From contig WJIL01000068.1 in the NCBI GenBank assembly GCA_014730275.1, forward strand, positions 87,527 to 151,526: a DNA stretch of 64,000 nt, written 5' to 3'. The DNA is from Promethearchaeota archaeon (GTDB lineage Archaea; Asgardarchaeota; Thorarchaeia; Thorarchaeales; Thorarchaeaceae). Both the position numbers and the translations under genes were made by a program. Positions 17,766 to 32,598 of this stretch are shown here, piece by piece. The notes under the pieces were generated by a model. That model ran no database searches, was not told the DNA's origin, and saw only the letters and a program-made list of their open reading frames with translations. The stretch's first letter is position 1. Every line of letters begins with the position of its first letter.

Positions 17766-19004
17766 TTACTTACTCAGAAGCTCATAAACTGCTATCAGAC
17801 CACGCTTCAAATCCGAGTGCGAGAAGGTATCTGCATTCTCGGGTACTGAACCGATTGAGAGTAGAAGAACAAGTGACAGTAAACGGGGAACAAGGGCTGT
17901 GTGCTCAAGCAGAAACTCCCTGTTCCCAGTTGCATCGACAATGAGACCCTCCAATCTACGACTCAGCAAGCTCAAATGATGACCAAGTGTTTCTGAGAAG
18001 GTGATTTCTCTAAACAGTTTCCTAAAACGAGAAGTGTTGTCCAACAACTCTGGTGGCATTCCGGCTTGTTGAAGAAGAGTCATTGCGTTGACAATGGCCG
18101 CTTCGTACTCATTTGGCCCAACTACAGGACGGGCATGCTTGGCATTATCGAGCTGTACAAGAAAACGTAAAGAATTGGTCAAGATGTTCCTTGAGATACT
18201 TGGTAGAGTGGAGGACACCTTGGTGAGCAGTTGACTATGCTCATCTTCGAACTTCGCCGCTTGGGAAGACTCCAGACTATTTTCAAATTCGCTGGATATT
18301 CTGACTTCAACAATTCTGGGTAATTGTTCGTGAGTTCCAATCCTTCGTACCGCAGTCAATGCGAGAAATTCCTCTCGAGAAACATAGAATAGGAGAATCC
18401 GAACCAAATCATATGCAATTTCGAAATCCTCCTCATTGATTCTTGATTTTCCTTTACTCCGAGCCAAAGCTGCACAGAGGATAGCCCACGAGCTGATAGC
18501 CCCGTCACAGATGCTCTTGCGCTGCTTCTGTTCGAAATCATGTTGTTTGAGAAAACGGGAAAGGCGTTCAGCAGCCCCATCAATTCTTCCTAGCGCGCTA
18601 CTTCCCAGTTTTACCTCACTCAACGATTGTAGGAAATCACGAGGGTCACGAGATGGAGGGCGGATAATGAAGCTTGGAGCCGACCTACTCATGCGCCACC
18701 ATTTACTTGTCGAAAGAAAGTAATCAAGAACATCGACAGACAGGGTTACATCAGAGGGGGTAGAGGTATCTCTTGAGTCAAGGTAGGTTACGAGTTGAGA
18801 GAAGAGGGAAAGAAATCGAGACAGGTGAGTGGGTAGATTTTTACCTGCAAATTGATATTCAGAAAATCTTTCAACAAGAGATTTAATTCTATTCAAAGCT
18901 CCTGTTGAAAGCTCACATTTCGCTAAGCCGTGATATACATCTATTGGCTTTCGTGCCAAAGTTCGATATCTCCACTTGTCTCTGTTGTAGAGAGAAGAAA
19001 TCAT
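17766..19004 (-). CDS. Uncharacterised all-alpha protein (412 aa)
   Basis: Long ORF, leucine-rich helical composition, no recognisable catalytic motif. Co-directional downstream of uppS. Confidence 0.5.
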   Translation of the reverse strand: MISSLYNRDKWRYRTLARKPIDVYHGLAKCELSTGALNRIKSLVERFSEYQFAGKNLPTHLSRFLSLFSQLVTYLDSRDTSTPSDVTLSVDVLDYFLSTSKWWRMSRSAPSFIIRPPSRDPRDFLQSLSEVKLGSSALGRIDGAAERLSRFLKQHDFEQKQRKSICDGAISSWAILCAALARSKGKSRINEEDFEIAYDLVRILLFYVSREEFLALTAVRRIGTHEQLPRIVEVRISSEFENSLESSQAAKFEDEHSQLLTKVSSTLPSISRNILTNSLRFLVQLDNAKHARPVVGPNEYEAAIVNAMTLLQQAGMPPELLDNTSRFRKLFREITFSETLGHHLSLLSRRLEGLIVDATGNREFLLEHTALVPRLLSLVLLLSIGSVPENADTFSHSDLKRGLIAVYELLSK

Positions 19005-19047
19005 CCTGTGAATATAAAAGACTGTGTCATTGAGCTAACTAAAGAGG

Positions 19048-19824
19048 TCAGCGGCCATAGCGTCTGGAACGCTGTTCGTAAGCTCGTAGAGCACGCCATA
19101 TATCTATACGCCGCACTGCCGGCCAGTATATTTGAGCAAAGTACAGCTCTGAGTAGGCAGATTGCCAAAGCAGGAAACCAGACAAACGCTCTTCTCCAGA
19201 GGTTCGTATTATCAAATCCGGATCCTTTATGCCATTGGTGTAAAGGTGGTTTTCAACAATGTTTTCATCAATTTCCTCAGGTGAGAGTTCCCCCGATTTA
19301 ATCTCCCGACCAATTTTCTTCACTGCGTCAACGAGTTCAGCTCTACCAGAATAACCTATAGCAACATTGAGAATGTGCTTATCATACTCTTTCGTTTCCT
19401 CTTCTGCCATTTGTATAGCTTCAGCAACTTCGTCGGGTAATAAATCGACTCTGCCAATCGCCCGAATTCGAACTTGGTGTTTGTGGATATCAGGATTTCC
19501 AACTACCTCGGAGAATTTCTCACGAGCTATCTTCATGATTTCGCTGACTTCTCGTTCGGCTCTTTTGAAATTCTCGAGTGAGAAGGCATATATTGTACAT
19601 ATTTTGACGCCAGATTCCCAGAGGATTTTGAGCACTTCCATGACTTTCTGTGCGCCTTTTCGATGGCCATACCATGGTGTATCGAGGCCATGTTCTCTGG
19701 CATATCTTCTATTTCCATCAAGAATCATACCAACATGCTCTGGAGCATTCTCCGTATCCAGCTGGCGATTCAGCCACCACTCATACAGTCGGTAAACTGG
19801 TCCGGCGATATTCATGCTCAGCAC
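19048..19824 (-). CDS. uppS: cis-Prenyltransferase (undecaprenyl-diphosphate synthase family)
   Basis: HVGMILDGNRRYA and RTSGEERLSGFLLWQS, the signature UPP synthase motifs. Confidence 0.9.
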   Translation of the reverse strand: MLSMNIAGPVYRLYEWWLNRQLDTENAPEHVGMILDGNRRYAREHGLDTPWYGHRKGAQKVMEVLKILWESGVKICTIYAFSLENFKRAEREVSEIMKIAREKFSEVVGNPDIHKHQVRIRAIGRVDLLPDEVAEAIQMAEEETKEYDKHILNVAIGYSGRAELVDAVKKIGREIKSGELSPEEIDENIVENHLYTNGIKDPDLIIRTSGEERLSGFLLWQSAYSELYFAQIYWPAVRRIDIWRALRAYEQRSRRYGR

Positions 19825-19887
19825 ATATCCTCGTGAATCAAGCCTGAACTAGACGTTAAAAGATTTAATGATGTAGGACCGCTTCTA

Positions 19888-20271
19888 TCAAATCATGGTT
19901 GCGACTTTTTCTGCCGCTCGTTTCATGTCCAAGAAAACCAAACCCAATTTTGCATCGGCAGTAGTGGATACAGTAAGGCAGGCATTCATGCCAGCTTGAA
20001 TTACAAGAAGCCAACCGTCATTACCCTTGATATTTACCTGCTCCAAATCCCCCTTTCCTAGCTCAATGGCAGCTTTCTCTCCCAAAGTCAACATTGCGGC
20101 CGTCATCGCAGCTACCTTTGCCTCATCAACATTTGTGGGCAGGGCTGAAACGATAGGCAATCCTTCGACACTAACTATCGCACATGCCTGTATTTCAGGA
20201 ATACTACCTTGTAACTCGTTTAGTACGCTTTCCAGCGTTTCACCGCGCGATTCCGCCATCTGTTTTTTCAC
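19888..20271 (-). CDS. mglB: Roadblock/LC7 domain protein, MglB-like partner of the upstream GTPase
   Basis: 127 aa, Roadblock/LC7 fold pattern (ACAIVSVEGLPIVS...GWLLVIQAG). Its start is 3 nt after the mglA stop. Confidence 0.8.
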   Translation of the reverse strand: MKKQMAESRGETLESVLNELQGSIPEIQACAIVSVEGLPIVSALPTNVDEAKVAAMTAAMLTLGEKAAIELGKGDLEQVNIKGNDGWLLVIQAGMNACLTVSTTADAKLGLVFLDMKRAAEKVATMI

Positions 20272-20273
20272 CT

Positions 20274-20837
20274 TTACTTGTACATTCGCTTGAGTATTAC
20301 CTCTCGTGCTATAGCTTGGAACGCCCTCTTAACTCCAACGCCCTGTATAGCAATAGTTTCATACACGGGTATATTCCCGCCTAATCCTAAAACATCGAGC
20401 ATCTCGTCTCGTGACATCCTGTTTGGAAGATCTCTCTTGTTGAGCATGATTACTATGGGGACCTCACGCTGTAAAGCATCGCCCATAAACATCTTCAGCT
20501 CTTCAAAGCTCTCCGCGTTCTCATCTCTCTGATCTGGAGATGAATCAGCAACGAAGAGGATGCCATCGGTACCTTGGAGGACGACCTTTCTCTGATGCCG
20601 ATGTCGCTTTTGGCCAGCCACTGTAAATACGTCAAACAGAACCCGGCCGCCTGCACTCATGGGTACATAGTCGAAGAAGAGTGTTCGGTTTGTCTCATCT
20701 TCAATAGATGTGAAATCACCCTTTTGTAGTCCTTCAACTTTACCGTACAACCATCGTAGTGCTGTGGTCTTTCCACCTAGGCTTGGGCCATAGAATACGA
20801 TTTTCAGATGAATGCGACCTTTATCGTCCTTCCGCAT
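20274..20837 (-). CDS. mglA: MglA-like small Ras-superfamily GTPase
   Basis: KIVFYGPSLGGKTT (G1), TLFFDYVPMS (switch I), FTVAGQ (G3), NKRDLPN (G4), GVGV. Near-collinear with Myxococcus MglA motifs. Confidence 0.85.
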   Translation of the reverse strand: MRKDDKGRIHLKIVFYGPSLGGKTTALRWLYGKVEGLQKGDFTSIEDETNRTLFFDYVPMSAGGRVLFDVFTVAGQKRHRHQRKVVLQGTDGILFVADSSPDQRDENAESFEELKMFMGDALQREVPIVIMLNKRDLPNRMSRDEMLDVLGLGGNIPVYETIAIQGVGVKRAFQAIAREVILKRMYK

Positions 20838-21073
20838 AGCAAACCACCTTTGTATTTTCTACAGTTCCGTAACTGCCAAATGGAGACATGTGAGGGCCCA
20901 AGTCTGGGCCATATGGCAGGGAATATGTAGGGGTAATAATCGTCACGTCCTTTAGTGAAAGGAAGATTCCTAGGTTGTATCCCCTGGTACGGGGTCGGCT
21001 GCCGTAAGAGGTTGCCCTCATAAAAGGCTTTGTGGCACACATCTCAAGGTCCTTGCCAATAATGGGAGATCCC

Positions 21074-21547
21074 CTAGACCTTCTCGAGCTCTTCCAAAGC
21101 CTGTTTGAGTCCTTCCTCGTCAAGCTCTTTACTCTTAGCAGGAGTTGATGTCTCGACTGCCAAGAACTTGTCGAGCTCGTCAGCCAATTCCTTGCCTTGC
21201 TTTTTCATGACAAGACGAATGAGTCCAATGTTTACCTCAGCTCCAGAAACGACGCTAAGAACACCTTTCCCACAAGCCGATGCGAAGATTTTCCCATCGG
21301 AGAACTCAGAGGTGACTATTTCCAAATCACCGATCTGAAGATTCTTACCTTGTTCTTCACTTGCACAGAAAACCGCGCTAGCAATAGCACCAATCGAATC
21401 GGTATCAACAGGGAAAGGGGCCAACTTTGATACGTTGGCAATGGTAAGGCCGGTCTTATCAGTCAAGATAACGCGTTTAATCCCCTTATCCTGCCTAATA
21501 ATCTCAGTCAAGATTTTGTCGAATTGTTTTGGGTCGCTCATAATCAT
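21074..21547 (-). CDS. Roadblock/LC7 domain protein with a C-terminal helical extension
   Basis: N-terminal 110 aa show the Roadblock pattern (VILTDKTGLTIAN...GDLEIVTSEF). The C-terminus is K/E-rich. Confidence 0.75.
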   Translation of the reverse strand: MIMSDPKQFDKILTEIIRQDKGIKRVILTDKTGLTIANVSKLAPFPVDTDSIGAIASAVFCASEEQGKNLQIGDLEIVTSEFSDGKIFASACGKGVLSVVSGAEVNIGLIRLVMKKQGKELADELDKFLAVETSTPAKSKELDEEGLKQALEELEKV

Positions 21548-21561
21548 TACCCTCTCAATCT

Positions 21562-21855
21562 TTATTTCTTAAGGACTATCAGAATCAAGCCCTCTTTCTC
21601 ATCAGGCGCGATATTAATCTGACCTTTAGATGTGTCAAGTGTGAGGAACGACAGCGAGCCCTCTTTGAGCTCTCGTACTGCGTCCAAAGCTTTGCCAACA
21701 AGAGAAGTCACAATTGCTGCGATATTCTCTGTTGTTTGAGCGTCTAGGTCGCTGCTCAGGGGTAGTCCTTCCATGCTTGTTACGATTACGCCGCGAACCC
21801 CTTCCTGAGCTTTGAGCTTGGAAAGGATTGATTGTAGTTTTTCTTGGCTTATCAA
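21562..21855 (-). CDS. Roadblock/LC7 domain protein
   Basis: 97 aa ([13 protein letters not shown]...GLILIVLKK). 15-nt gap to the next Roadblock gene. Confidence 0.75.
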
Positions 21856-22036
21856 CTTCTGGAATCCCCGCTGATGGCAATCATGCTCTTGGCATTTTGA
21901 AGCACACTTTTGCCTATTTTAGACTTGTGGCAATGTGCTATCTGAAATATGTCCTAATTGCGCAAAATATACCATCATTGGTTAAAAGATGGCCAGATTT
22001 AGCATATCGGAACAAGATTTCAGGCGTAGTGAGTTG

Positions 22037-23668
22037 TTACTCTTCGTCCTCATCGTCATCTTTCAGTAGCGCCCGAGAATTTCGCCTCATCTGTGCAAAG
22101 CTCTTTGTTGATGCTAAATCGGCAGCTGCTGATGGCCCCGCGCGAGGTGCTTTTTTCATCATCTCTTGGGTCTGCTGAAGTTCTTCCTCTTCAGAAGCCA
22201 GAGCTTCATCTACCCGCCTTATGTTGTTTTCAATCGATGAGGGTGCTTGTTTCGCGCGGCTTGTCATAGCTTTCCTGAAGGATGCTATTCTCTTTGCGCC
22301 TTCGCTGTGTTTTCCACGGAAAGCTTCTTCACCAGCCTTCTGGGTGGTGAATGTAGCAGCAAGCTTCGGATCAAAACTTGCCATGATTTCATCCTCGTCT
22401 TTTGTGACATTCAAACGGGTCGTTACAGAACGAATACGCCTTGCTCCACTCTTATCGAGGTACTCCACCTGTAGCTGTACAGGAATGCTATCAGTATCGA
22501 GTTCCTCTTCTGGTTCCATTTCAAAGTAGAGTTCGTGATTTTCTCCTACAACGCCCACTTTTCCGGACTTCTTTGATTTCATTTCATCAATCACTGCACG
22601 TGACATACCTGATGCATCCTTGACACGTACACCGGGTGGAGTTATCATGCGGACAGTAACATCTCGTGCAATGGAGGAAGCACCCGCAAGGGCAGACATA
22701 CTTCTGTCAAGCTCATTTGGCGTTACATAGTACATCTGACCGCCTGTTGCCTCTGGAAGGAGGCCAAGCGTCTTAAGCTCCATTCCAGAACCCCCGGCGA
22801 TTCCCACCACATCAAAAGCTGTACCAATATCACGAAACATCTGCCCCATCTGTTCATAGTAATCAGTTGCGGGTGTAACCTGGAATCCTTCCAACGAGCC
22901 AACACCTTCATTGGCAAGACCATCTGTAAGAAGTAAAAGCCGCCCAATATCTCGATGTTTCGCAATAGTATATCCCATAGCAACCGCGGGGCCTAATGCA
23001 GTACCTCCTTTCGGGCCCAAGTCTGCTACGTGCCTTTTTAACCGGTCACTATTTTTCCCGACAGCGACCATTTTCACGTCATCCAATAGAGTCCGACTTG
23101 TTTCTAATATCCGGTTCAAACTGGGGAAAGCCTCCCTTGGAAGATGGACAGCTTCTCCAGTCAGCGGATTTCTATAGGCGACCGAGCTTTCAAACTCAAT
23201 TATGCCGAATAGAGTCTCTGGTGAATTCGCTGCCAGAGAGTCAATTGAATTCCGTAGACTTCTTTTAACGGCCTCAAGATTTGCGCCACCCATCGAGCCA
23301 GATACGTCTATGAGCGCTAAGAAAGCGCCACTGGCAGTTGACACTTCTTGTTCAGTAGATTCATCTTCGGAAGGGGGTGGTGCAATCAGAAAGTCGGATT
23401 CATCTCCTGCTGTAATAATCTCGCCTTCTACGACATTGAGAGTTCCACAGAACGGACAGATGAAATGTTTTCCAACTTTGGGATCTTCCACAATCTGGTC
23501 AGTACTGATAAGATATCCTCCACAACGTTCACAAGCAATTGGTTTTCCTACGATTTTCCTAACCTCGTGGGTAAGACCGCTGAATTCCACACGCATGACA
23601 TAGGGGATATCGTCTAGAATTTTCTTTGAGGCCGGAAATGAGTTAGATGTGGGCTTGAGTAGGGGCAT
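22037..23668 (-). CDS. Zinc-ribbon + von Willebrand A (vWA) + beta-sandwich protein with an acidic disordered tail. Resembles the Sec23/24 zinc finger and trunk.
   Basis: C-x2-C-x21-C-x2-C zinc finger (CERCGG...CPFCG). MIDAS DVSGSM about 30 aa later. LFGIIEFESSV resembles the Sec23 trunk VGLITFGRMV block. Beta-rich segment, then an E/D-rich tail. Confidence 0.55.
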   Translation of the reverse strand: MPLLKPTSNSFPASKKILDDIPYVMRVEFSGLTHEVRKIVGKPIACERCGGYLISTDQIVEDPKVGKHFICPFCGTLNVVEGEIITAGDESDFLIAPPPSEDESTEQEVSTASGAFLALIDVSGSMGGANLEAVKRSLRNSIDSLAANSPETLFGIIEFESSVAYRNPLTGEAVHLPREAFPSLNRILETSRTLLDDVKMVAVGKNSDRLKRHVADLGPKGGTALGPAVAMGYTIAKHRDIGRLLLLTDGLANEGVGSLEGFQVTPATDYYEQMGQMFRDIGTAFDVVGIAGGSGMELKTLGLLPEATGGQMYYVTPNELDRSMSALAGASSIARDVTVRMITPPGVRVKDASGMSRAVIDEMKSKKSGKVGVVGENHELYFEMEPEEELDTDSIPVQLQVEYLDKSGARRIRSVTTRLNVTKDEDEIMASFDPKLAATFTTQKAGEEAFRGKHSEGAKRIASFRKAMTSRAKQAPSSIENNIRRVDEALASEEEELQQTQEMMKKAPRAGPSAAADLASTKSFAQMRRNSRALLKDDDEDEE

Positions 23669-23798
23669 AGTTGTATCAACCTCAGCAGGTTTTATCTTTC
23701 AGTAGTCAAGATGTTATTAAGTGAATCGTCGTACGTTTAGAATAGAGAGGTTGACTACAAGTACGTGGGATTACACGAGCAACCCTCTATCGTAGAAG

Positions 23799-23808
23799 AT
23801 ATATATCC
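23799..23808 (+). promoter_or_regulatory. TATA-like box (ATATATATCC) for the + strand Roadblock gene. SD AAGGAGGA at 23843-23850.
   Basis: AT-rich box about 55 nt upstream of the ATG at 23859. The SD is 9 nt before the ATG. Confidence 0.3.
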
Positions 23809-23858
23809 TGCAACAGCCCAGTAGCAAGAACACGACAGAACCAAGGAGGACAAGAATA

Positions 23859-24224
23859 TTGGTTGATGAAGGTAGAGTTGAAGAGATTATAGCAGAAACC
23901 ATGTCAGAAAATGCCGTAATCGAAGGAATGGTAGCGTGTAACGCAGAAGGAGAGGTAATCTTTGGTCATACGTTATCTGACAGCATAAAGCACAAAAAAG
24001 TAGCAGATTTGGTGGTAAAGCTCAGCTCGCTTTCCTCACAACTCAGTGGAACTGTTGATAAAGGCGAATTGAAAGAAGTGAGCATCACTTCAGAGAATGG
24101 ATATGTCATCATCCTTGGGGATGTGGAGCTAGTACTCGCCGCCATCGTAGGTGAAGAAGGACGGGAATCAATGGGGCTTATCCGGATGACCCTTAGAAGA
24201 GCGCTAGTATCCATGTTGGACTAA
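23859..24224 (+). CDS. Roadblock/LC7 domain protein (divergent from the vWA gene)
   Basis: 121 aa (MVACNAEGEVIFG...GYVIILGDVELVLAAIV). Confidence 0.75.
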   Translation: MVDEGRVEEIIAETMSENAVIEGMVACNAEGEVIFGHTLSDSIKHKKVADLVVKLSSLSSQLSGTVDKGELKEVSITSENGYVIILGDVELVLAAIVGEEGRESMGLIRMTLRRALVSMLD

Positions 24225-24410
24225 ATACTAGTTGAGCGACATTCTTTTCAATCATAAGAGTGAACGCAAAAGTATACTAGGTATATATCAAGTATTACGC
24301 AGATATTACCAAGCGTGATATTCCACATAATATCTCATAATCATGATGGTAGAGCGGACATAATGGACCGTATTTGAATTTGCGCTACAAAAACCGGATG
24401 GGAATGAATA

Positions 24411-27400
24411 TTGGTACACATCGAACGGCTTGAATGTAAAGGCTTCAAATCCTTTGGCCGGAAAAAAGTATCAATAAAGTTCAATCCGGGGTTCACATGT
24501 ATTGTGGGTCCAAATGGGTCAGGCAAGTCCAATGTAGTTGACGCTATTCTTTTTGTACTTGGACAACTCAGCGCTAAAACACTTAGAGCAAATGTTTTTG
24601 CGGATCTACTCTATTCACCTCCAAAGCCGAATATGCCTCCGGAGGCAAAATCAGCAACTGTTAAGCTGTATTTCAACAACAGAGATCGCAAGCTCCAAGT
24701 CGAGTCTGATAAGGTAGTAATCGAGAGAGAACTAGATGAATCGGGAAGGTCAACATGTCGAGTAAATGGAAAGGTTGTTACTCGTTCGACAGTAGTAGAC
24801 ATCCTCGGGGGCATTGGCGTTGATCCCAACGGATACAATCTGGTACTTCAAGGGGAAATAGCTCAGATTGTGAAATCCAGCCCAACACAGAGACGAGAAC
24901 TCATAGAAGAAATAGCAGGCATCTCTGCGTACGATGAGCAAAAGGAGAAAGCGCTGAAGAAGCTTACCGAGAGCGAGAACAATCTTGGAAAAGTGGAAAT
25001 GCAACTCCGAGAACGTCAACGGCAACTTGACAAGCTAGAGGAGGAAAGGGGCGATGCACTACAGTACCAGAAAACACGCCAACTTAAACGAGAGACTAGA
25101 ATTGACAGCCTCGCTTGGAATATTGTGAAATCAGAAAGCCGAATTGAGACGATCAAAGAGACCCTTGCAGAAAAGGCCGAGGAGTATGAACAGCTCGAAA
25201 AGGAGCTCCACAATACTATTCAAAAAATAGAGAATACAGAAGAAGAGATTGGAAGAATAGATGATGAAATTGATCAGATTGCGGGTGAAGATTCAGCGCG
25301 AATATCAGAAAGGTTTGGTGTCGTGTCAGCTGCTGTAGAGCATTTGATAGAGGAACTAGATGAGGCCAATCGTAGTCTCAATGAAGCAAAAACAAGGAAA
25401 GAAAGGAAAGAAGAGAGACTTGAAAAGATTAAAGAAGAAATTCAAAAACTGAATGAGAAACATGGCCTAAAACAGGATTACCTAGAAGAGGTTACCGAAG
25501 AAGTTTCATCAGTAGAAACCAAGATTGAGCGATTGGAAAAGAGATTCGAAGAAGAACAGTCCAATTACTATAGGATTACACAGGAACTACAGCAATACAA
25601 CAACAAGATGCGTTCTCTTGATGAAAGCATAGCACAGATTAGATCCACAATCAAATCAAATAACAGAGAATTGGGCTATGCCTATGAGGAACTTAGAGAC
25701 AGTAAGGAGGGGCTGAAGCGGGTAACGGGAGAGGTAGCACAGCTTGAGAAGGAGATACCAGAGAGGGCCCAGAACATAGAGCAAATGAAAACATCAGAAA
25801 GATCCAAACGAAACGAGTTCCAGGACATCGAAGAGCAACTCGAAAGGGTCAATGCAGAAGTAGATGAAACGACCAAGGTCCTGTCATCTACGAGAGAAGA
25901 GTTAATCAGATTACAGGCCAGACAAGATGCGCTGAAAGAAGCTGAAGAATCGTTCCTGAAACGTAGAGAAGCAGTTGCTAGAGTATTGGAACTACGAGAT
26001 GCAGGTGCTATAGAAGGGATTCATGGCACGGTCGCAGAATTAGGTACGATTGACCCAGATTATGCCGTTGCAATGGAAATAGCGGGTGGTAGCCGTCTTT
26101 CATATGTGGTTGTGGAAAACGAGAAAACTGCAACAAAATGCATAAACGCGTTGAAGACTGAACGGGTTGGAAGAGCCTCATTCATTCCCCTAAATAAGAT
26201 AAAAACGAGGTCTCCTGGAAAACTTCCCGATAATGAGGGAGTAGTTGGATTTGCACTCAATCTTGTGAATTTCGATCCGAAGTTCCGCCCAGCCTTTGAA
26301 TTCGCCTTTTCGGATACTCTGATAACCGAAGATTTCAGAACAACGAAGAGAATGGGATTTAGTGGGTGGAGGGCAGTTTCACTAGAAGGAGATATTGTTG
26401 AACGATCAGGTTTGGTTACGGGTGGACACTATCAGCACAAATCGAGGGGTCTCACCTTACAGGTGAAAGATGAAAGCCCCCAAATCATCGAGAAGCTAAA
26501 TGGTCTCAAGAAAATATTAGGCGACTTGCGAGCTAAGCAGGAATCCCTCCGTAATCGAAAGGAACAGTTGGAGAAAGAAATAAACCAACTCGGAAATGAA
26601 AGATATAGACAAGAAATTAAGCTTGATAGACTAAAGGGGAACTTGTCCGAAAACGAAGAGAGAAGGTCTCGCCTAACTGAGCGAATTCATAAGTTGAATA
26701 TAACAATCGAAGAGCTGGAATCTCAGACTGAAGAGCTCCAAGAGAAGGACGAACAACTGACCAGTGAACGAAATCGAGTAAGAAGAGAACGTGATGATTG
26801 TAACGAGAGATTAGCAAAATCGGATGCAGCACAGATAAACCAAGATCTCAAGGATTTGAAGAAAGTTCTAGAGCACGAGAAACAAAAAAGGGAGAGAACT
26901 GAGAAAGAGATAACAAAAATCAGACTCACTATTGATGAGAGATTGTCACCAAGAGCAGATGAACTGGCAAATGATGTTGAATCTATAGAGAGAACCCTTC
27001 CTGAGCTGAAAGAGCACATACAGGAATTGGAGTACAAACTAAGGAAGAAGAAGAGCGAGTATCAGGAGCTGCAGACCAAAAGAGAAGAAATCGAAGATGC
27101 GGTCAAGGACAAGAGAGTCTATCAACTTGACTTAAAGGAAGAAGTCAGGAATCTCCGCCTTCGTCATGAGGAAATACGAGAAGAGCAGACATCCAATGAG
27201 AAAGCGGTATATCGGCTTCAAACCGAACAGAGTAAGCTGGAAGAAGAAACTGTCGCTTTTTCGGCTGAATTGGATGAAATTGCTGATAAAGACAAGGAAC
27301 TGGAGAAACGAAGAGACGCTGAAGAGTTAACATATAGCGAGATTGAGGATTTGGAGGAGGAGGTTAAAGAATTCCAGCGCGAATTGGAAGAGATGGGGCC

Positions 27401-32034: not shown

Positions 32035-32598
32035 ATGAAACTACAGGAGAACTGTTCAGTGGAAGACCGGTCAGTGGATGAAATTCAAACCAAAATCAGC
32101 GATTTGGATTTAGACTATATGCGTGGATTGGTTTCTGAAGAAGAATACAAAGCTAAGATGGAAGAATTGCAGGAGAAGTTGGAGGCAGCAGGAGGGAAAC
32201 CTTCTGGTCTCTCTGCAGCACAAAAAGCCAAAGAGTCTCTCAAATCGCCACCAGAAGAGGAATTCACTCAGCAACGAGGAGTGGCAACAACAGACCCGGT
32301 TACAGCCGTCAAAAGAGCTGTACAGAAGTTCAGAAGGATTCCAATAGAACGGATTGCCCAAGAAGCTGGTGTGAGCGCAATCAACACAGCTAAGATATTA
32401 ACCGATCTACTGGATGGACGAGAGTTATCTGGGCGGATAGATCGTGAAAGGGGAGATCTGCTATTGGGAACCGGTAGTGGCCCTGCACCGAAAAACATCG
32501 TAGTTTGCCCATTCTGTGGTCGAAAGATGGACAAGATAGCAGTACGGGGAGAAACCGTCACCTGTAATATGTGTCAAGAATCTTTTGTCATTTCATAG
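32035..32598 (+). CDS. Hypothetical protein with a C-terminal zinc ribbon
   Basis: 187 aa, helical N-terminus, C-terminal CPFCG...CNMC. Confidence 0.45.
   Translation: MKLQENCSVEDRSVDEIQTKISDLDLDYMRGLVSEEEYKAKMEELQEKLEAAGGKPSGLSAAQKAKESLKSPPEEEFTQQRGVATTDPVTAVKRAVQKFRRIPIERIAQEAGVSAINTAKILTDLLDGRELSGRIDRERGDLLLGTGSGPAPKNIVVCPFCGRKMDKIAVRGETVTCNMCQESFVIS

What the first reader, a model, noticed from the sequence alone, without database searches (positions are those of the whole stretch)
19888..24224. MglA-MglB GTPase/Roadblock module expanded with three more Roadblock paralogs and a zinc-finger + vWA (Sec23/24-trunk-like) protein
An MglA-type GTPase with the full set of MglA signature blocks is translationally coupled to an MglB-like Roadblock protein. 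Within 4 kb lie two more tandem Roadblock genes, a 543-aa Zn-ribbon + vWA + beta-sandwich protein with an acidic tail, and a divergently transcribed fourth Roadblock gene.

The Zn finger (C-x2-C-x21-C-x2-C), the MIDAS DxSxS, and the LFGIIEFESSV block resemble the Sec23/Sec24 zinc-finger and trunk domains that bind the Sar1 GTPase in COPII.

This could be a GTPase-GAP/GEF-effector system in which a Sec23/24-like scaffold is controlled by MglA/Roadblock(longin-like) proteins. That would be a plausible prokaryotic antecedent of coat or polarity machinery.
Basis: partly seen in the sequence, partly recalled or inferred. Interest (0 to 1): 0.8.

Follow-up and report, generated by a model that had tools for sequence, protein, structure and literature searches.

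The report
Thorarchaeal MglA-Roadblock module beside Sec23/24-like gene
This stretch of a Thorarchaeota (Asgard archaeon) genome puts an ancient MglA GTPase and four Roadblock proteins next to the already-known archaeal relative of the COPII coat proteins Sec23/24, which names a candidate partner GTPase to test, though the adjacency itself is confined to Thorarchaeota.

Summary
In detail: all six genes are real, at the stated coordinates, with the stated motifs. The GTPase is MglA-type. All four small genes are Roadblock/LC7 proteins.

The 543-aa protein is homologous to Sec24/Sec23: zinc finger, trunk, beta-sandwich and helical region, but no gelsolin domain. That protein family is already known in Thorarchaeota.

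- Sec23/24-like plus MglA/Roadblock adjacency holds in 21 of 21 Thorarchaeal loci, but the housekeeping flanks are equally syntenic.
- It is absent from about 20 loci of more distant Sec23/24-like genes.
- The MglA module (RB2-MglA, usually with RB1, sometimes RB3) is pan-Asgard and occurs without the Sec23/24-like gene.
- Conserved promoter-like motifs and tolerated insertions indicate several transcription units, not one operon.
- RB2, not the coupled RB1, is the better MglB equivalent.

Independent hints link this vWA family to small GTPases. Lokiarchaeal orthologues keep an atypical Rab-like GTPase gene nearby. The closest eukaryotic relatives include fusions to a circularly permuted Ras domain (cpRAS).

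I rate it a new variant of known kinds, of moderate interest.

The parts
19888..20271 (-). RB1: a Roadblock/LC7 protein of 127 aa, tightly coupled downstream of mglA.
   Evidence: - Pfam Robl_LC7 62.6 bits.
- Solved relatives 7f8m (E 2e-23) and 9jue.
- Orthologues 45-52% identical lie downstream of mglA in Jord-, Heimdall- and Hodarchaeia.
- 83-90% identical across Thorarchaeota.
20274..20837 (-). MglA-type small GTPase, 187 aa.
   Evidence: - Best solved relatives are Thermus and Myxococcus MglA (E 2e-39 to 1e-38); Arf reaches 1e-12.
- P-loop G17-x5-K23-T24.
- R51 aligns with the MglA switch-I arginine.
- G3 motif is T72-V-A-G-Q76, with Thr in place of Asp.
- 89-93% identical across Thorarchaeota and 57-63% to other Asgard classes.
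21020..21035 (-). Conserved promoter-like motif CCACAAAGCCTTTTAT, 183 nt upstream of the mglA ATG.
   Evidence: - The block CCACAAAGGCTTTTATGAGAC is conserved in 10 Thorarchaeal spacers that are otherwise unalignable.
- It occurs once in the window; 0.02 matches are expected by chance.
- Function as a BRE/TATA promoter is inferred.
21074..21547 (-). RB2: an MglB-like Roadblock protein of 157 aa with a C-terminal extension.
   Evidence: - Pfam Robl_LC7 37.0 bits and MAPKK1_Int/LAMTOR3 35.2 bits.
- Top solved matches are M. xanthus MglB, E 4e-4, over residues 8-138.
- NCBIfam MglB 19.7 bits, far below the 200-bit cut-off.
- Orthologues 53-57% identical lie directly upstream of mglA in Jord-, Heimdall-, Hod- and Odinarchaeia.
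21562..21855 (-). RB3: a short Roadblock protein of the 'RBLC7' type, 97 aa, 14 nt upstream of RB2.
   Evidence: - Pfam Robl_LC7 58.5 bits and LAMTOR5 32.5 bits.
- Solved relatives: 7f8f (94 aa; presumably the Odin-RBLC7 of PMC10933270, identity inferred from its length), E 6e-27, and eukaryotic dynein light chain Roadblock, E 4e-14.
- A 55% identical orthologue sits at the same position in Jordarchaeales.
21914..21930 (-). Conserved promoter-like motif CCACAAGTCTAAAATAG, 59 nt upstream of the RB3 TTG start.
   Evidence: - Nearly invariant in 10 Thorarchaeal loci.
- Unique in the window.
- Function as a BRE/TATA promoter is inferred.
22037..23668 (-). Sec23/24-like protein, 543 aa. Domain order:
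- N-terminal strands.
- Zn finger (46-74).
- Acidic linker.
- vWA/trunk with a complete MIDAS (115-327).
- Beta-sandwich (337-422).
- Helical region (425-535).
- Acidic tail.

There is no gelsolin domain.
   Evidence: - Pfam hits.
- AlphaFold model, pLDDT 68.4.
- Foldseek top 46 hits are all Sec23/24, E down to 2.5e-25.
- Profile of Asgard homologues against yeast Sec24, E 3e-24.
- An orthologue in Thorarchaeota SMTZ1-45 is already named 'SEC24 family transport protein'.
23859..24224 (+). RB4: a divergently transcribed Roadblock protein, 121 aa, seen only in Thorarchaeal loci among those examined.
   Evidence: - Pfam Robl_LC7 24.4 bits against a cut-off of 23.
- Solved relative 9jq8, E 2.6e-10.
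- 52-61% identical across Thorarchaeota.
- The adjacency is lost in L005/L006 and interrupted by TnpB-like insertions in L003 and L008.

Best explanation
The locus juxtaposes two Asgard modules.

**Module 1: an MglA switch.**
- It is ancient and found across Asgard classes.
- MglA cycles between GTP and GDP using its own switch-I arginine.
- A Roadblock dimer built from the MglB-like RB2, possibly together with RB1, acts as its GAP and regulator.
- The short RB3 (and RB4 in Thorarchaeota) serves as a helix-binding adaptor.

**Module 2: the Thorarchaeal orthologue of the known Asgard Sec23/24-like protein.**
- I think it is a metal-dependent (MIDAS) adaptor that is recruited by, or scaffolds, a small GTPase.
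- It is not a GAP and not a complete coat subunit.
- In Thorarchaeota its most likely partner is the neighbouring MglA.

**Shown:** the gene identities, domain architecture, homologies and distribution.

**Inferred:** the GAP role of RB2/RB1, the adaptor roles of RB3/RB4, and any MglA to Sec23/24-like coupling.
For: **Identities.**

**The MglA module is ancient.**
- Order RB3-RB2-MglA-RB1 in Jordarchaeales, RB2-MglA-(YhbY)-RB1 in Heimdall- and Hodarchaeia, and RB2-MglA in Odinarchaeia.
- The four Roadblock paralogues are only 21-28% identical to each other, so they are old.
- Module proteins are 77-93% identical across Thorarchaeota, against 52-65% for SMC.

**Adjacency in Thorarchaeota.**
- Sec23/24-like, RB3, RB2, MglA and RB1 lie on the same strand in 21 of 21 Thorarchaeal loci.
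- This includes L005/L006, where the left flank was rearranged.

**Family-level link to small GTPases.**
- An orthologous atypical Rab-like GTPase gene lies within 4 bp to 1.5 kb of the Lokiarchaeal Sec23/24-like gene in 5 of 6 loci. This holds despite inversions and different intervening genes.
- The closest eukaryotic sequence relatives include cpRAS1-like proteins. In these a Ras-like GTPase domain is fused in front of the whole Zn-finger/vWA/beta-sandwich/helical module (PMC2430557).
- Eukaryotic Sec23/24 binds Sar1 (PMC11914678).

**Consistency.** MglA carries its own arginine, so an effector without the gelsolin arginine fits.
Against: - The adjacency is restricted to one class, and there the housekeeping flanks (SMC/ScpA, UPP synthase) are just as conserved. 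Inherited synteny alone could explain it.
- The genes form at least four transcription units.
  - There are separate conserved promoter-like motifs before RB3 and before mglA.
  - Other Thorarchaeal loci have terminator-like hairpins after the Sec23/24-like gene.
  - Insertions of 1.5-1.8 kb are tolerated between RB4 and the Sec23/24-like gene, and between RB2 and mglA.
- Other Asgard classes have both modules unlinked.
- PMC11914678 found that Asgard Sec23-like proteins lack Sar1-contact residues. It also found they bound an Asgard Arf only weakly and independently of nucleotide state.
- Asgard genomes are rich in small GTPases (my own knowledge, about 2% of genes). Some proximity is therefore expected by chance, and the Lokiarchaeal loci are not independent of each other.
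Confidence: 0.45

Rival explanations
1. The two modules are neighbours by descent only. The Sec23/24-like protein works independently of MglA. It might be an ArnB-like regulatory scaffold, or it might work with a GTPase encoded elsewhere. The MglA/Roadblock module does its own job, such as polarity or localisation.
For: - Linkage is absent outside Thorarchaeota.
- The MglA module is conserved without the Sec23/24-like gene.
- Flanking housekeeping genes are equally syntenic.
- There are separate promoter-like motifs and tolerated insertions.
- The RB3 and mglA upstream motifs share CCACAA, which the Sec23/24-like upstream region lacks.
- ArnB is a solved archaeal vWA/beta-sandwich relative that acts in phospho-signalling (PMC12852372).
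Against: - There is independent GTPase adjacency in Lokiarchaeia.
- Eukaryotic relatives are fused to a GTPase domain.
- The left flank was rearranged in L005/L006 without separating the Sec23/24-like gene from RB3-RB2-MglA-RB1.
Confidence: 0.35
2. This is a true proto-COPII system. The Sec23/24-like protein polymerises on membranes as an inner-coat-like layer. MglA plays the part of Sar1, and the Roadblock proteins supply GAP and GEF functions.
For: - The domain order matches the Sec23/24 inner coat, and the homology to Sec24 is strong at profile level.
- A GTPase gene lies nearby.
- PMC11914678 argues that these proteins are ancestors of Sec23.
Against: - There is no gelsolin domain.
- Only a single gene is present in the window, not a Sec23/Sec24 pair.
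- MglA has no N-terminal amphipathic helix of the Sar1/Arf type in its sequence (read).
- The complete, invariant MIDAS points to ligand binding.
- The nearest eukaryotic relatives by sequence are the Zn-finger-VWA/cpRAS family, not Sec23/24: 115-150 bits against 25-29 bits with the same profile.
Confidence: 0.1
3. This is a Ragulator-like scaffold. The four Roadblock paralogues form heterodimer pairs, as LAMTOR2/3 and LAMTOR4/5 do, and these dock a GTPase for nutrient or positional signalling.
For: - RB2 passes the Pfam MAPKK1_Int (LAMTOR3) cut-off, and RB3 passes the LAMTOR5 cut-off.
- Full-length and truncated Roadblock forms coexist, as in Ragulator (PMC10933270).
Against: - MglA has a single domain and lacks the C-terminal Roadblock domain of Rag GTPases.
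- No LAMTOR1-like anchor was identified.
- RB2's best solved match is bacterial MglB.
Confidence: 0.15

Closest known systems
MglA-MglB polarity switch of Myxococcus xanthus and Thermus thermophilus
   Same: - MglA signature motifs are present: the P-loop, the switch-I arginine and the TxxGQ G3 motif.
- E 2e-39 to solved MglA.
- A Roadblock gene of MglB length sits directly upstream, as in the mglBA operon (operon order is from my own knowledge).
- RB2's top solved matches are MglB.
   Different: - The host is an archaeon.
- There are three further ancient Roadblock paralogues.
- RB2 is far below the NCBIfam MglB equivalog cut-off (19.7 against 200 bits).
- In Thorarchaeota a spacer of about 165-490 nt with its own promoter-like motif separates RB2 from mglA.
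- No RomR/RomX-type partner is evident.
COPII inner coat Sec23/Sec24 with Sar1
   Same: - The order N-terminal strands, Zn finger, vWA trunk, beta-sandwich, helical domain is the same.
- Profile E 3e-24 to yeast Sec24.
- Best fold matches are Sec23/24.
- A small GTPase gene is nearby.
   Different: - There is no gelsolin domain, and so no Sec23-type GAP residue (PMC11914678).
- The protein is 543 aa rather than about 770-930 aa.
- It has a complete, invariant MIDAS.
- There is one gene rather than a paralogue pair.
- The neighbouring GTPase is MglA, not Sar1 or Arf.
Asgard Sec23-like proteins described in PMC11914678 (Nat Commun 2025) and annotated in Thorarchaeota SMTZ1-45
   Same: It is the same protein family. 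The SMTZ1-45 orthologue is 63% identical and named 'SEC24 family transport protein'. The architecture is the same, without gelsolin.
   Different: That paper tested Asgard Arf proteins as partners and does not discuss gene neighbourhoods (the word stem 'neighbo' has 0 occurrences). The MglA/Roadblock adjacency in Thorarchaeota and the Rab-like adjacency in Lokiarchaeia are not mentioned there.
Eukaryotic cpRAS-VWA and Zn-finger-VWA proteins (PMC2430557)
   Same: - Full-length collinear similarity: 24% identity over 512 aa, E 3e-37, to an Entamoeba 520-aa protein.
- 23% identity over 578 aa, E 3e-33, to Diadema cpRAS1-like.
- They share the Zn finger, MIDAS, beta-sandwich and helical tail, and also lack gelsolin.
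   Different: - In cpRAS proteins the GTPase is a circularly permuted Ras domain fused in the same chain.
- Their function is unknown.
- They are eukaryotic.
ArnA/ArnB archaellum regulators of Sulfolobus (PDB 8s05; PMC12852372)
   Same: - Zn-ribbon plus vWA plus beta-sandwich plus helical elements.
   Different: - The Zn-ribbon is on a separate FHA protein (ArnA).
- The system is regulated by phosphorylation.
- The sequence match to the Asgard profile covers only about 60 residues.
Ragulator (LAMTOR2-5) with Rag GTPases
   Same: Several Roadblock paralogues are present, including a truncated form. Pfam LAMTOR5 and MAPKK1_Int hits are above their cut-offs.
   Different: - The GTPase lacks a Roadblock domain.
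- No LAMTOR1-like anchor was found.
- Pairing among the four Roadblock proteins is unknown.

Membership tests
MglA family of small GTPases | Closest solved or characterised relatives are MglA rather than Arf, Ras or Rab. | tested here: met
   Thermus and Myxococcus MglA score E 2e-39 to 1e-38. The best Arf scores 1.5e-12.
MglA family of small GTPases | G3 motif TxxGQ (Thr replaces the canonical Asp) and an intrinsic switch-I arginine. | tested here: met
   T72-V-A-G-Q76 is present. R51 aligns with the ...ERTLFFD... arginine of T. thermophilus MglA in the printed alignment. The meaning of these motifs comes from my own knowledge of the family.
MglA family of small GTPases | Genomic association with an MglB-type Roadblock gene. 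| tested here: met
   RB2 lies upstream and RB1 downstream. Both associations are conserved in other Asgard classes.
MglA family of small GTPases | GTP hydrolysis stimulated by the Roadblock partner. | not testable with these tools
   This needs biochemistry.
Roadblock/LC7 (including MglB) | Robl_LC7 domain above the Pfam gathering score. | tested here: met
   RB1 62.6, RB2 37.0, RB3 58.5 and RB4 24.4 bits, against a cut-off of 23.
Roadblock/LC7 (including MglB) | MglB equivalog (NCBIfam NF052242). | tested here: not met
   Only RB2 hits it, at 19.7 bits against a cut-off of 200. RB2's best solved match is nevertheless MglB, E 4e-4.
Sec23/Sec24 (COPII inner coat) | Sec23/24 zinc finger. | tested here: inconclusive
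   - Pfam zf-Sec23_Sec24 scores 24.0 bits against a cut-off of 25.
- The four Cys are invariant in 30 homologues.
- The Asgard profile aligns to yeast Sec24 from profile position 41, which is the finger region.
Sec23/Sec24 (COPII inner coat) | Trunk (vWA) domain. | tested here: met
   - Sec23_trunk scores 32.1 bits against a cut-off of 27, but over only 51 residues in this protein.
- Homologues match about 200 of the 241 profile positions.
Sec23/Sec24 (COPII inner coat) | Beta-sandwich and helical domains following the trunk. | tested here: inconclusive
   - Sec23_BS scores 29.7 bits against a cut-off of 33.5, over the full 86-position profile.
- The model shows strands 337-422 followed by helices 425-535.
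- There is no Pfam hit to the Sec23 helical domain.
Sec23/Sec24 (COPII inner coat) | C-terminal gelsolin-like domain (carries the Sec23 GAP residue). | tested here: not met
   - The protein ends at residue 543 after the helical region.
- There is no gelsolin hit.
- This agrees with PMC11914678.
Sec23/Sec24 (COPII inner coat) | Sec23 plus Sec24 paralogue pair forming a heterodimer. | tested here: inconclusive
   There is no second copy in the 64-kb window. The rest of the genome was not available.
Sec23/Sec24 (COPII inner coat) | Binds a Sar1/Arf-family GTPase in its GTP state. | not testable with these tools
   The neighbouring GTPase is MglA-type, not Sar1/Arf. PMC11914678 reports only weak, nucleotide-independent binding of Asgard Sec23-like proteins to an Asgard Arf.
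Ragulator-like Roadblock scaffold | LAMTOR-type Roadblock subunits. | tested here: met
   RB3 scores 32.5 bits on LAMTOR5 (cut-off 27). RB2 scores 35.2 bits on MAPKK1_Int (cut-off 25).
Ragulator-like Roadblock scaffold | Rag-type GTPase with a C-terminal Roadblock domain. | tested here: not met
   MglA is a 187-aa single-domain GTPase.

The most novel reading that the evidence does not exclude
In Thorarchaeota the Sec23/24-like protein is a nucleotide-state-dependent effector of MglA. A Ragulator-like set of four Roadblock proteins tunes that MglA.

More generally, the archaeal ancestors of Sec23/24 were already small-GTPase effectors before the gelsolin GAP domain and Sar1 were recruited. The partner GTPase was swapped between lineages: MglA in Thorarchaeota, an atypical Rab-like GTPase in Lokiarchaeia, and a fused cpRAS domain in eukaryotes.
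Probability: 0.25. Interest if true: 0.8.

Novelty: new variant of a known kind. Interest (0 to 1): 0.5.

Why it matters
How GTPase-controlled vesicle coats arose is an open question in eukaryogenesis. Asgard Sec23-like proteins are known, but no cognate GTPase has been found. The one experimental test used Asgard Arf proteins and was negative for nucleotide dependence (PMC11914678). Tran et al. (PMC10933270) noted that in the one Lokiarchaeon they examined (MK-D1), small-GTPase genes generally do not sit in operons with their regulators, which makes pairings hard to predict.

This locus gives one well-defined GTPase/Roadblock pairing that is conserved across Asgard classes. It also gives two neighbourhood-derived candidate GTPases for Sec23/24-like proteins: MglA in Thorarchaeota and a Rab-like GTPase in Lokiarchaeia. 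These can be tested directly with recombinant proteins.

It also suggests that the nearest eukaryotic kin of these archaeal proteins may be the little-studied Zn-finger-VWA/cpRAS family rather than Sec23/24 themselves.

Tried and rejected
- **Rfam scan of 19000-25000, permissive threshold:** no RNA family. The long spacers are not explained by a known RNA.
- **Literature search by PDB codes** (9JUE, 9JQ8, 7F8M, 7YH1): essentially nothing useful.
- **Genome-collection scan with the single protein:** reached only close Thorarchaeal relatives. I used the metagenome scan with a 30-sequence alignment to reach distant ones.
- **Roadblock HMM built from 22 Asgard Roadblock sequences:** no hit even at E <= 1 in any distant Sec23/24-like locus. 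The absence of linkage there is not a sensitivity artefact.
- **afdb50 fold library:** unavailable.
- **Multimer prediction of MglA with the Sec23/24-like protein:** not attempted. The structure tool takes single chains from the window only and returns no inter-chain error estimates.
- **'Single operon':** considered and rejected.
- **'GTPase fusions are Asgard proteins':** my first reading, rejected. They are eukaryotic cpRAS proteins.

Full report
**What is in the sequence**

The interval 19888-24224 holds six genes. Five are on the minus strand, in this order of transcription:
- a 543-aa protein (22037-23668)
- RB3 (21562-21855, 97 aa)
- RB2 (21074-21547, 157 aa)
- a GTPase (20274-20837, 187 aa)
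- RB1 (19888-20271, 127 aa)

RB4 (23859-24224, 121 aa) is transcribed divergently from the 543-aa gene. The flanks are housekeeping genes. UPP synthase and a 412-aa protein with no Pfam hit lie downstream. SMC, ScpA and ScpB lie on the other side.

Close homologues of the 543-aa protein are all from Thorarchaeota. One, from SMTZ1-45, is already named "SEC24 family transport protein".

**Identity of the parts**

- The GTPase is MglA-type. Solved MglA proteins score E 2e-39 to 1e-38, against 1.5e-12 for the best Arf. The printed alignment shows the MglA switch-I arginine (R51 here) and the TxxGQ G3 motif (T72-Q76).
- All four small proteins pass the Pfam Robl_LC7 cut-off. They are only 21-28% identical to each other, so they are old paralogues and not recent tandem copies.
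- RB2 has MglB length. Its best solved matches are M. xanthus MglB, and it also passes the MAPKK1_Int (LAMTOR3) model.
- RB3 is the truncated form. It is closest to 7f8f (94 aa; presumably the Odin-RBLC7 structure of PMC10933270, identity inferred from its length), E 6e-27, and to eukaryotic dynein light chain Roadblock, E 4e-14. It passes the LAMTOR5 model.
- RB1 and RB4 match other Asgard Roadblock structures.

**The 543-aa protein**

- The four Cys and a complete MIDAS (D121, S123, S125, T223, D249) are invariant across 30 diverse Asgard homologues.
- Pfam gives Sec23_trunk above its cut-off, and the Sec23/24 beta-sandwich and zinc finger just below theirs.
- A single-sequence search of solved structures finds only Sec24, weakly (E 0.002).
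- A profile of the 30 Asgard homologues gives yeast Sec24 E 3e-24 over profile positions 41-470. It gives human Sec24A 3.6e-23, Sec23A 2e-8 and ArnB 2.6e-11.
- The AlphaFold model is of moderate quality (pLDDT 68.4). Its elements follow the Sec23/24 order: N-terminal strands, finger, trunk, beta-sandwich, helices.
- The top 46 Foldseek hits are all Sec23/Sec24 (E 2.5e-25 to 2.6e-17), ahead of a bacterial vWA protein and ArnB.
- There is no gelsolin domain.

All of this agrees with PMC11914678. That paper describes Asgard Sec23-like proteins as having every Sec23 domain except gelsolin, and as lacking Sar1-contact residues. From memory, Sec23/24-domain proteins in Thorarchaeota were first reported by Zaremba-Niedzwiedzka et al. 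in 2017. That paper is not in the searchable library.

**Is the linkage conserved?**

Within Thorarchaeota it is fully conserved.
- Nine genome loci and twelve metagenome loci keep the gene order, as far as each contig reaches. Their Sec23/24-like proteins are 58-66% identical to the window's.
- The SMC/ScpA and UPP-synthase flanks are equally syntenic. Conservation of order therefore does not by itself show selection for linkage.
- One rearrangement is informative. L005/L006 lost the RB4-SMC side but kept Sec23/24-like-RB3-RB2-MglA-RB1.

Outside Thorarchaeota the linkage disappears.
- Orthologues or paralogues 24-42% identical have no MglA and no Roadblock gene nearby. These are named Hermod-, Frey-, Sigyn-, Hel- and Lokiarchaeia where a name exists.
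- My own Roadblock HMM finds nothing there even at E <= 1.

Conversely, the MglA module exists without a Sec23/24-like neighbour:
- Jordarchaeales: RB3-RB2-MglA-RB1
- Heimdall- and Hodarchaeia: RB2-MglA-(YhbY)-RB1
- Odinarchaeia: RB2-MglA

So the MglA/Roadblock module is ancient and pan-Asgard. Its placement next to the Sec23/24-like gene is a Thorarchaeal feature.

**Transcription units**

- Spacings are conserved: RB3-RB2 13-26 nt, MglA-RB1 0-7 nt in nearly all loci, Sec23/24-like-RB3 158-348 nt, and RB2-MglA 165-491 nt.
- The long spacers are unalignable except for sharp conserved blocks. CCACAAGTCTAAAATAG lies 59 nt before RB3. CCACAAAGGCTTTTATGAGAC lies 60-190 nt before mglA. Both look like BRE/TATA promoters and share CCACAA.
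- Most other Thorarchaeal loci have a GC hairpin and a T-run right after the Sec23/24-like stop codon.
- TnpB-like elements are inserted between RB4 and the Sec23/24-like gene in L003 and L008. Unrelated genes of 1.8 kb are inserted between RB2 and mglA in L008 and L023.

The cluster is therefore at least four units: RB4 | Sec23/24-like | RB3-RB2 | MglA-RB1.

**Independent links between this vWA family and small GTPases**

- The Thorarchaeal profile hits a eukaryotic family at 115-150 bits. Canonical Sec24 reaches only 25-29 bits with the same profile.
- These eukaryotic proteins are Zn-finger-VWA proteins of Entamoeba, Platysulcus, Cantina and Chrysoparadoxa, and "circularly permutated Ras protein 1-like" of a sea urchin.
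- Pairwise BLASTP is collinear over the whole archaeal protein, E 3e-37 and 3e-33.
- In cpRAS proteins a Ras-like GTPase domain is fused in front of this module. This architecture was described in 2008 (PMC2430557).
- In Lokiarchaeia the ~549-aa subfamily keeps an orthologous atypical Rab-like GTPase gene within 4 bp to 1.5 kb in five of six loci. This GTPase has G3 WDF[GA]GE, with Glu in place of the catalytic Gln.
- That association holds across 58-95% Sec23/24-like identity and despite changes of orientation and of intervening genes. The sixth locus has an Arf-like GTPase 2.7 kb away.
- Other subfamilies show no GTPase within their flanks.
- Caveats: Asgard genomes are rich in small GTPases, and these loci share ancestry. 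This is suggestive evidence, not statistical evidence.

**Most likely mechanism**

Shown: the identities, architectures and distributions above.

Inferred:
- MglA acts as a GTP/GDP switch with its own arginine.
- An RB2 dimer, or an RB2/RB1 heterodimer, is its GAP and regulator, as MglB is.
- RB3 and RB4 are adaptor subunits that offer a helix-binding groove, as PMC10933270 proposes for the truncated form.
- The Sec23/24-like protein is a MIDAS-dependent adaptor that works with a small GTPase. In Thorarchaeota the neighbouring MglA is the best candidate. Because MglA does not need an arginine supplied in trans, an effector without the gelsolin domain would be consistent.

I put this at about 0.45, against 0.35 for the two modules being unrelated neighbours. 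A true proto-coat (0.1) or a Ragulator-like scaffold (0.15) are more specific readings.

**Novelty and verdict**

The components are known:
- Asgard MglA and Roadblock proteins (PMC10933270)
- Asgard Sec23-like proteins (PMC11914678)
- the annotation already present in a public genome

I found no paper that describes the adjacency. All three full-text searches that combined 'Sec23' with 'archaea', 'Asgard' or 'Thorarchaeota' plus a further term returned nothing on it, and PMC11914678 does not discuss neighbourhoods.

Its interpretation is partly right and overstated on conservation and on operon structure. I rate the locus a new variant of known kinds. Its interest is moderate, mainly because it names testable GTPase candidates for the archaeal Sec23/24 relatives.

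Noticed in passing
window 22037-23668(-); proteins P0163, P0184, P0165, P0167, P0168, P0176: With the same Thorarchaeal profile, eukaryotic Zn-finger-VWA proteins (Entamoeba, Platysulcus, Cantina, Chrysoparadoxa) and cpRAS1-like fusions score 115-150 bits. Canonical Sec24 scores only 25-29 bits. The nearest eukaryotic kin of Asgard 'Sec23-like' proteins may therefore be this obscure family, not Sec23/24.
   Followed up: partly
L043 6338-6853 and 6953-8515; L038, L101, L103, L104: The Lokiarchaeal Sec23/24-like genes (~549 aa) keep an orthologous atypical Rab-like GTPase within 4 bp to 1.5 kb. This GTPase has G3 WDF[GA]GE (Gln replaced by Glu) and G4 [GS][SG]K[LK]D. A CPBP/Rce1-like protease gene (PF02517) recurs in four of these neighbourhoods.
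   Followed up: partly
window 21914-21930(-) and 21020-21035(-): Two sharply conserved promoter-like blocks lie upstream of RB3 and of mglA. Both begin with CCACAA followed by an A/T-rich box. The Sec23/24-like upstream region lacks this motif. mglA seems to have a leader of 60-190 nt.
   Followed up: partly
L003 6547-7769; L008 6661-7914: TnpB/IS200-605-like genes are inserted in the divergent spacer between RB4 and the Sec23/24-like gene in two Thorarchaeal genomes. L008 and L023 carry unrelated 1.8-kb insertions between RB2 and mglA.
   Followed up: partly
window 20274-20837(-) and neighbours, compared with L001-L032: MglA is 89-93% identical across Thorarchaeal genomes, RB1 83-90%, RB2 81-86% and RB3 77-84%. 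In the same genomes SMC is only 52-65% identical and the Sec23/24-like protein 58-66%. Constraint on the switch module is unusually strong.
   Followed up: no
window 17766-19004(-): A 412-aa protein with no Pfam or NCBIfam hit is conserved (40-46% identity) at the downstream end of the cluster in all Thorarchaeal loci that reach that far.
   Followed up: no
proteins P0360-P0390: Thorarchaeota carry a second MglA-like paralogue family of 268-306 aa. It is 50-55% identical to the window MglA and has an extension of about 100 aa of unknown nature.
   Followed up: no
window 32035-32598(+): A 187-aa protein has a borderline PCI-domain hit (22.9 bits, cut-off 22). This domain is typical of the eukaryotic proteasome lid, CSN and eIF3.
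   Followed up: no
L001, L022, L024, L032 just downstream of the Sec23/24-like stop codon: A GC-rich hairpin (for example GCCGTGCT...AGCACGGC) followed by a T-run is conserved in position in several Thorarchaeal loci. It is not obvious in the window itself.
   Followed up: no
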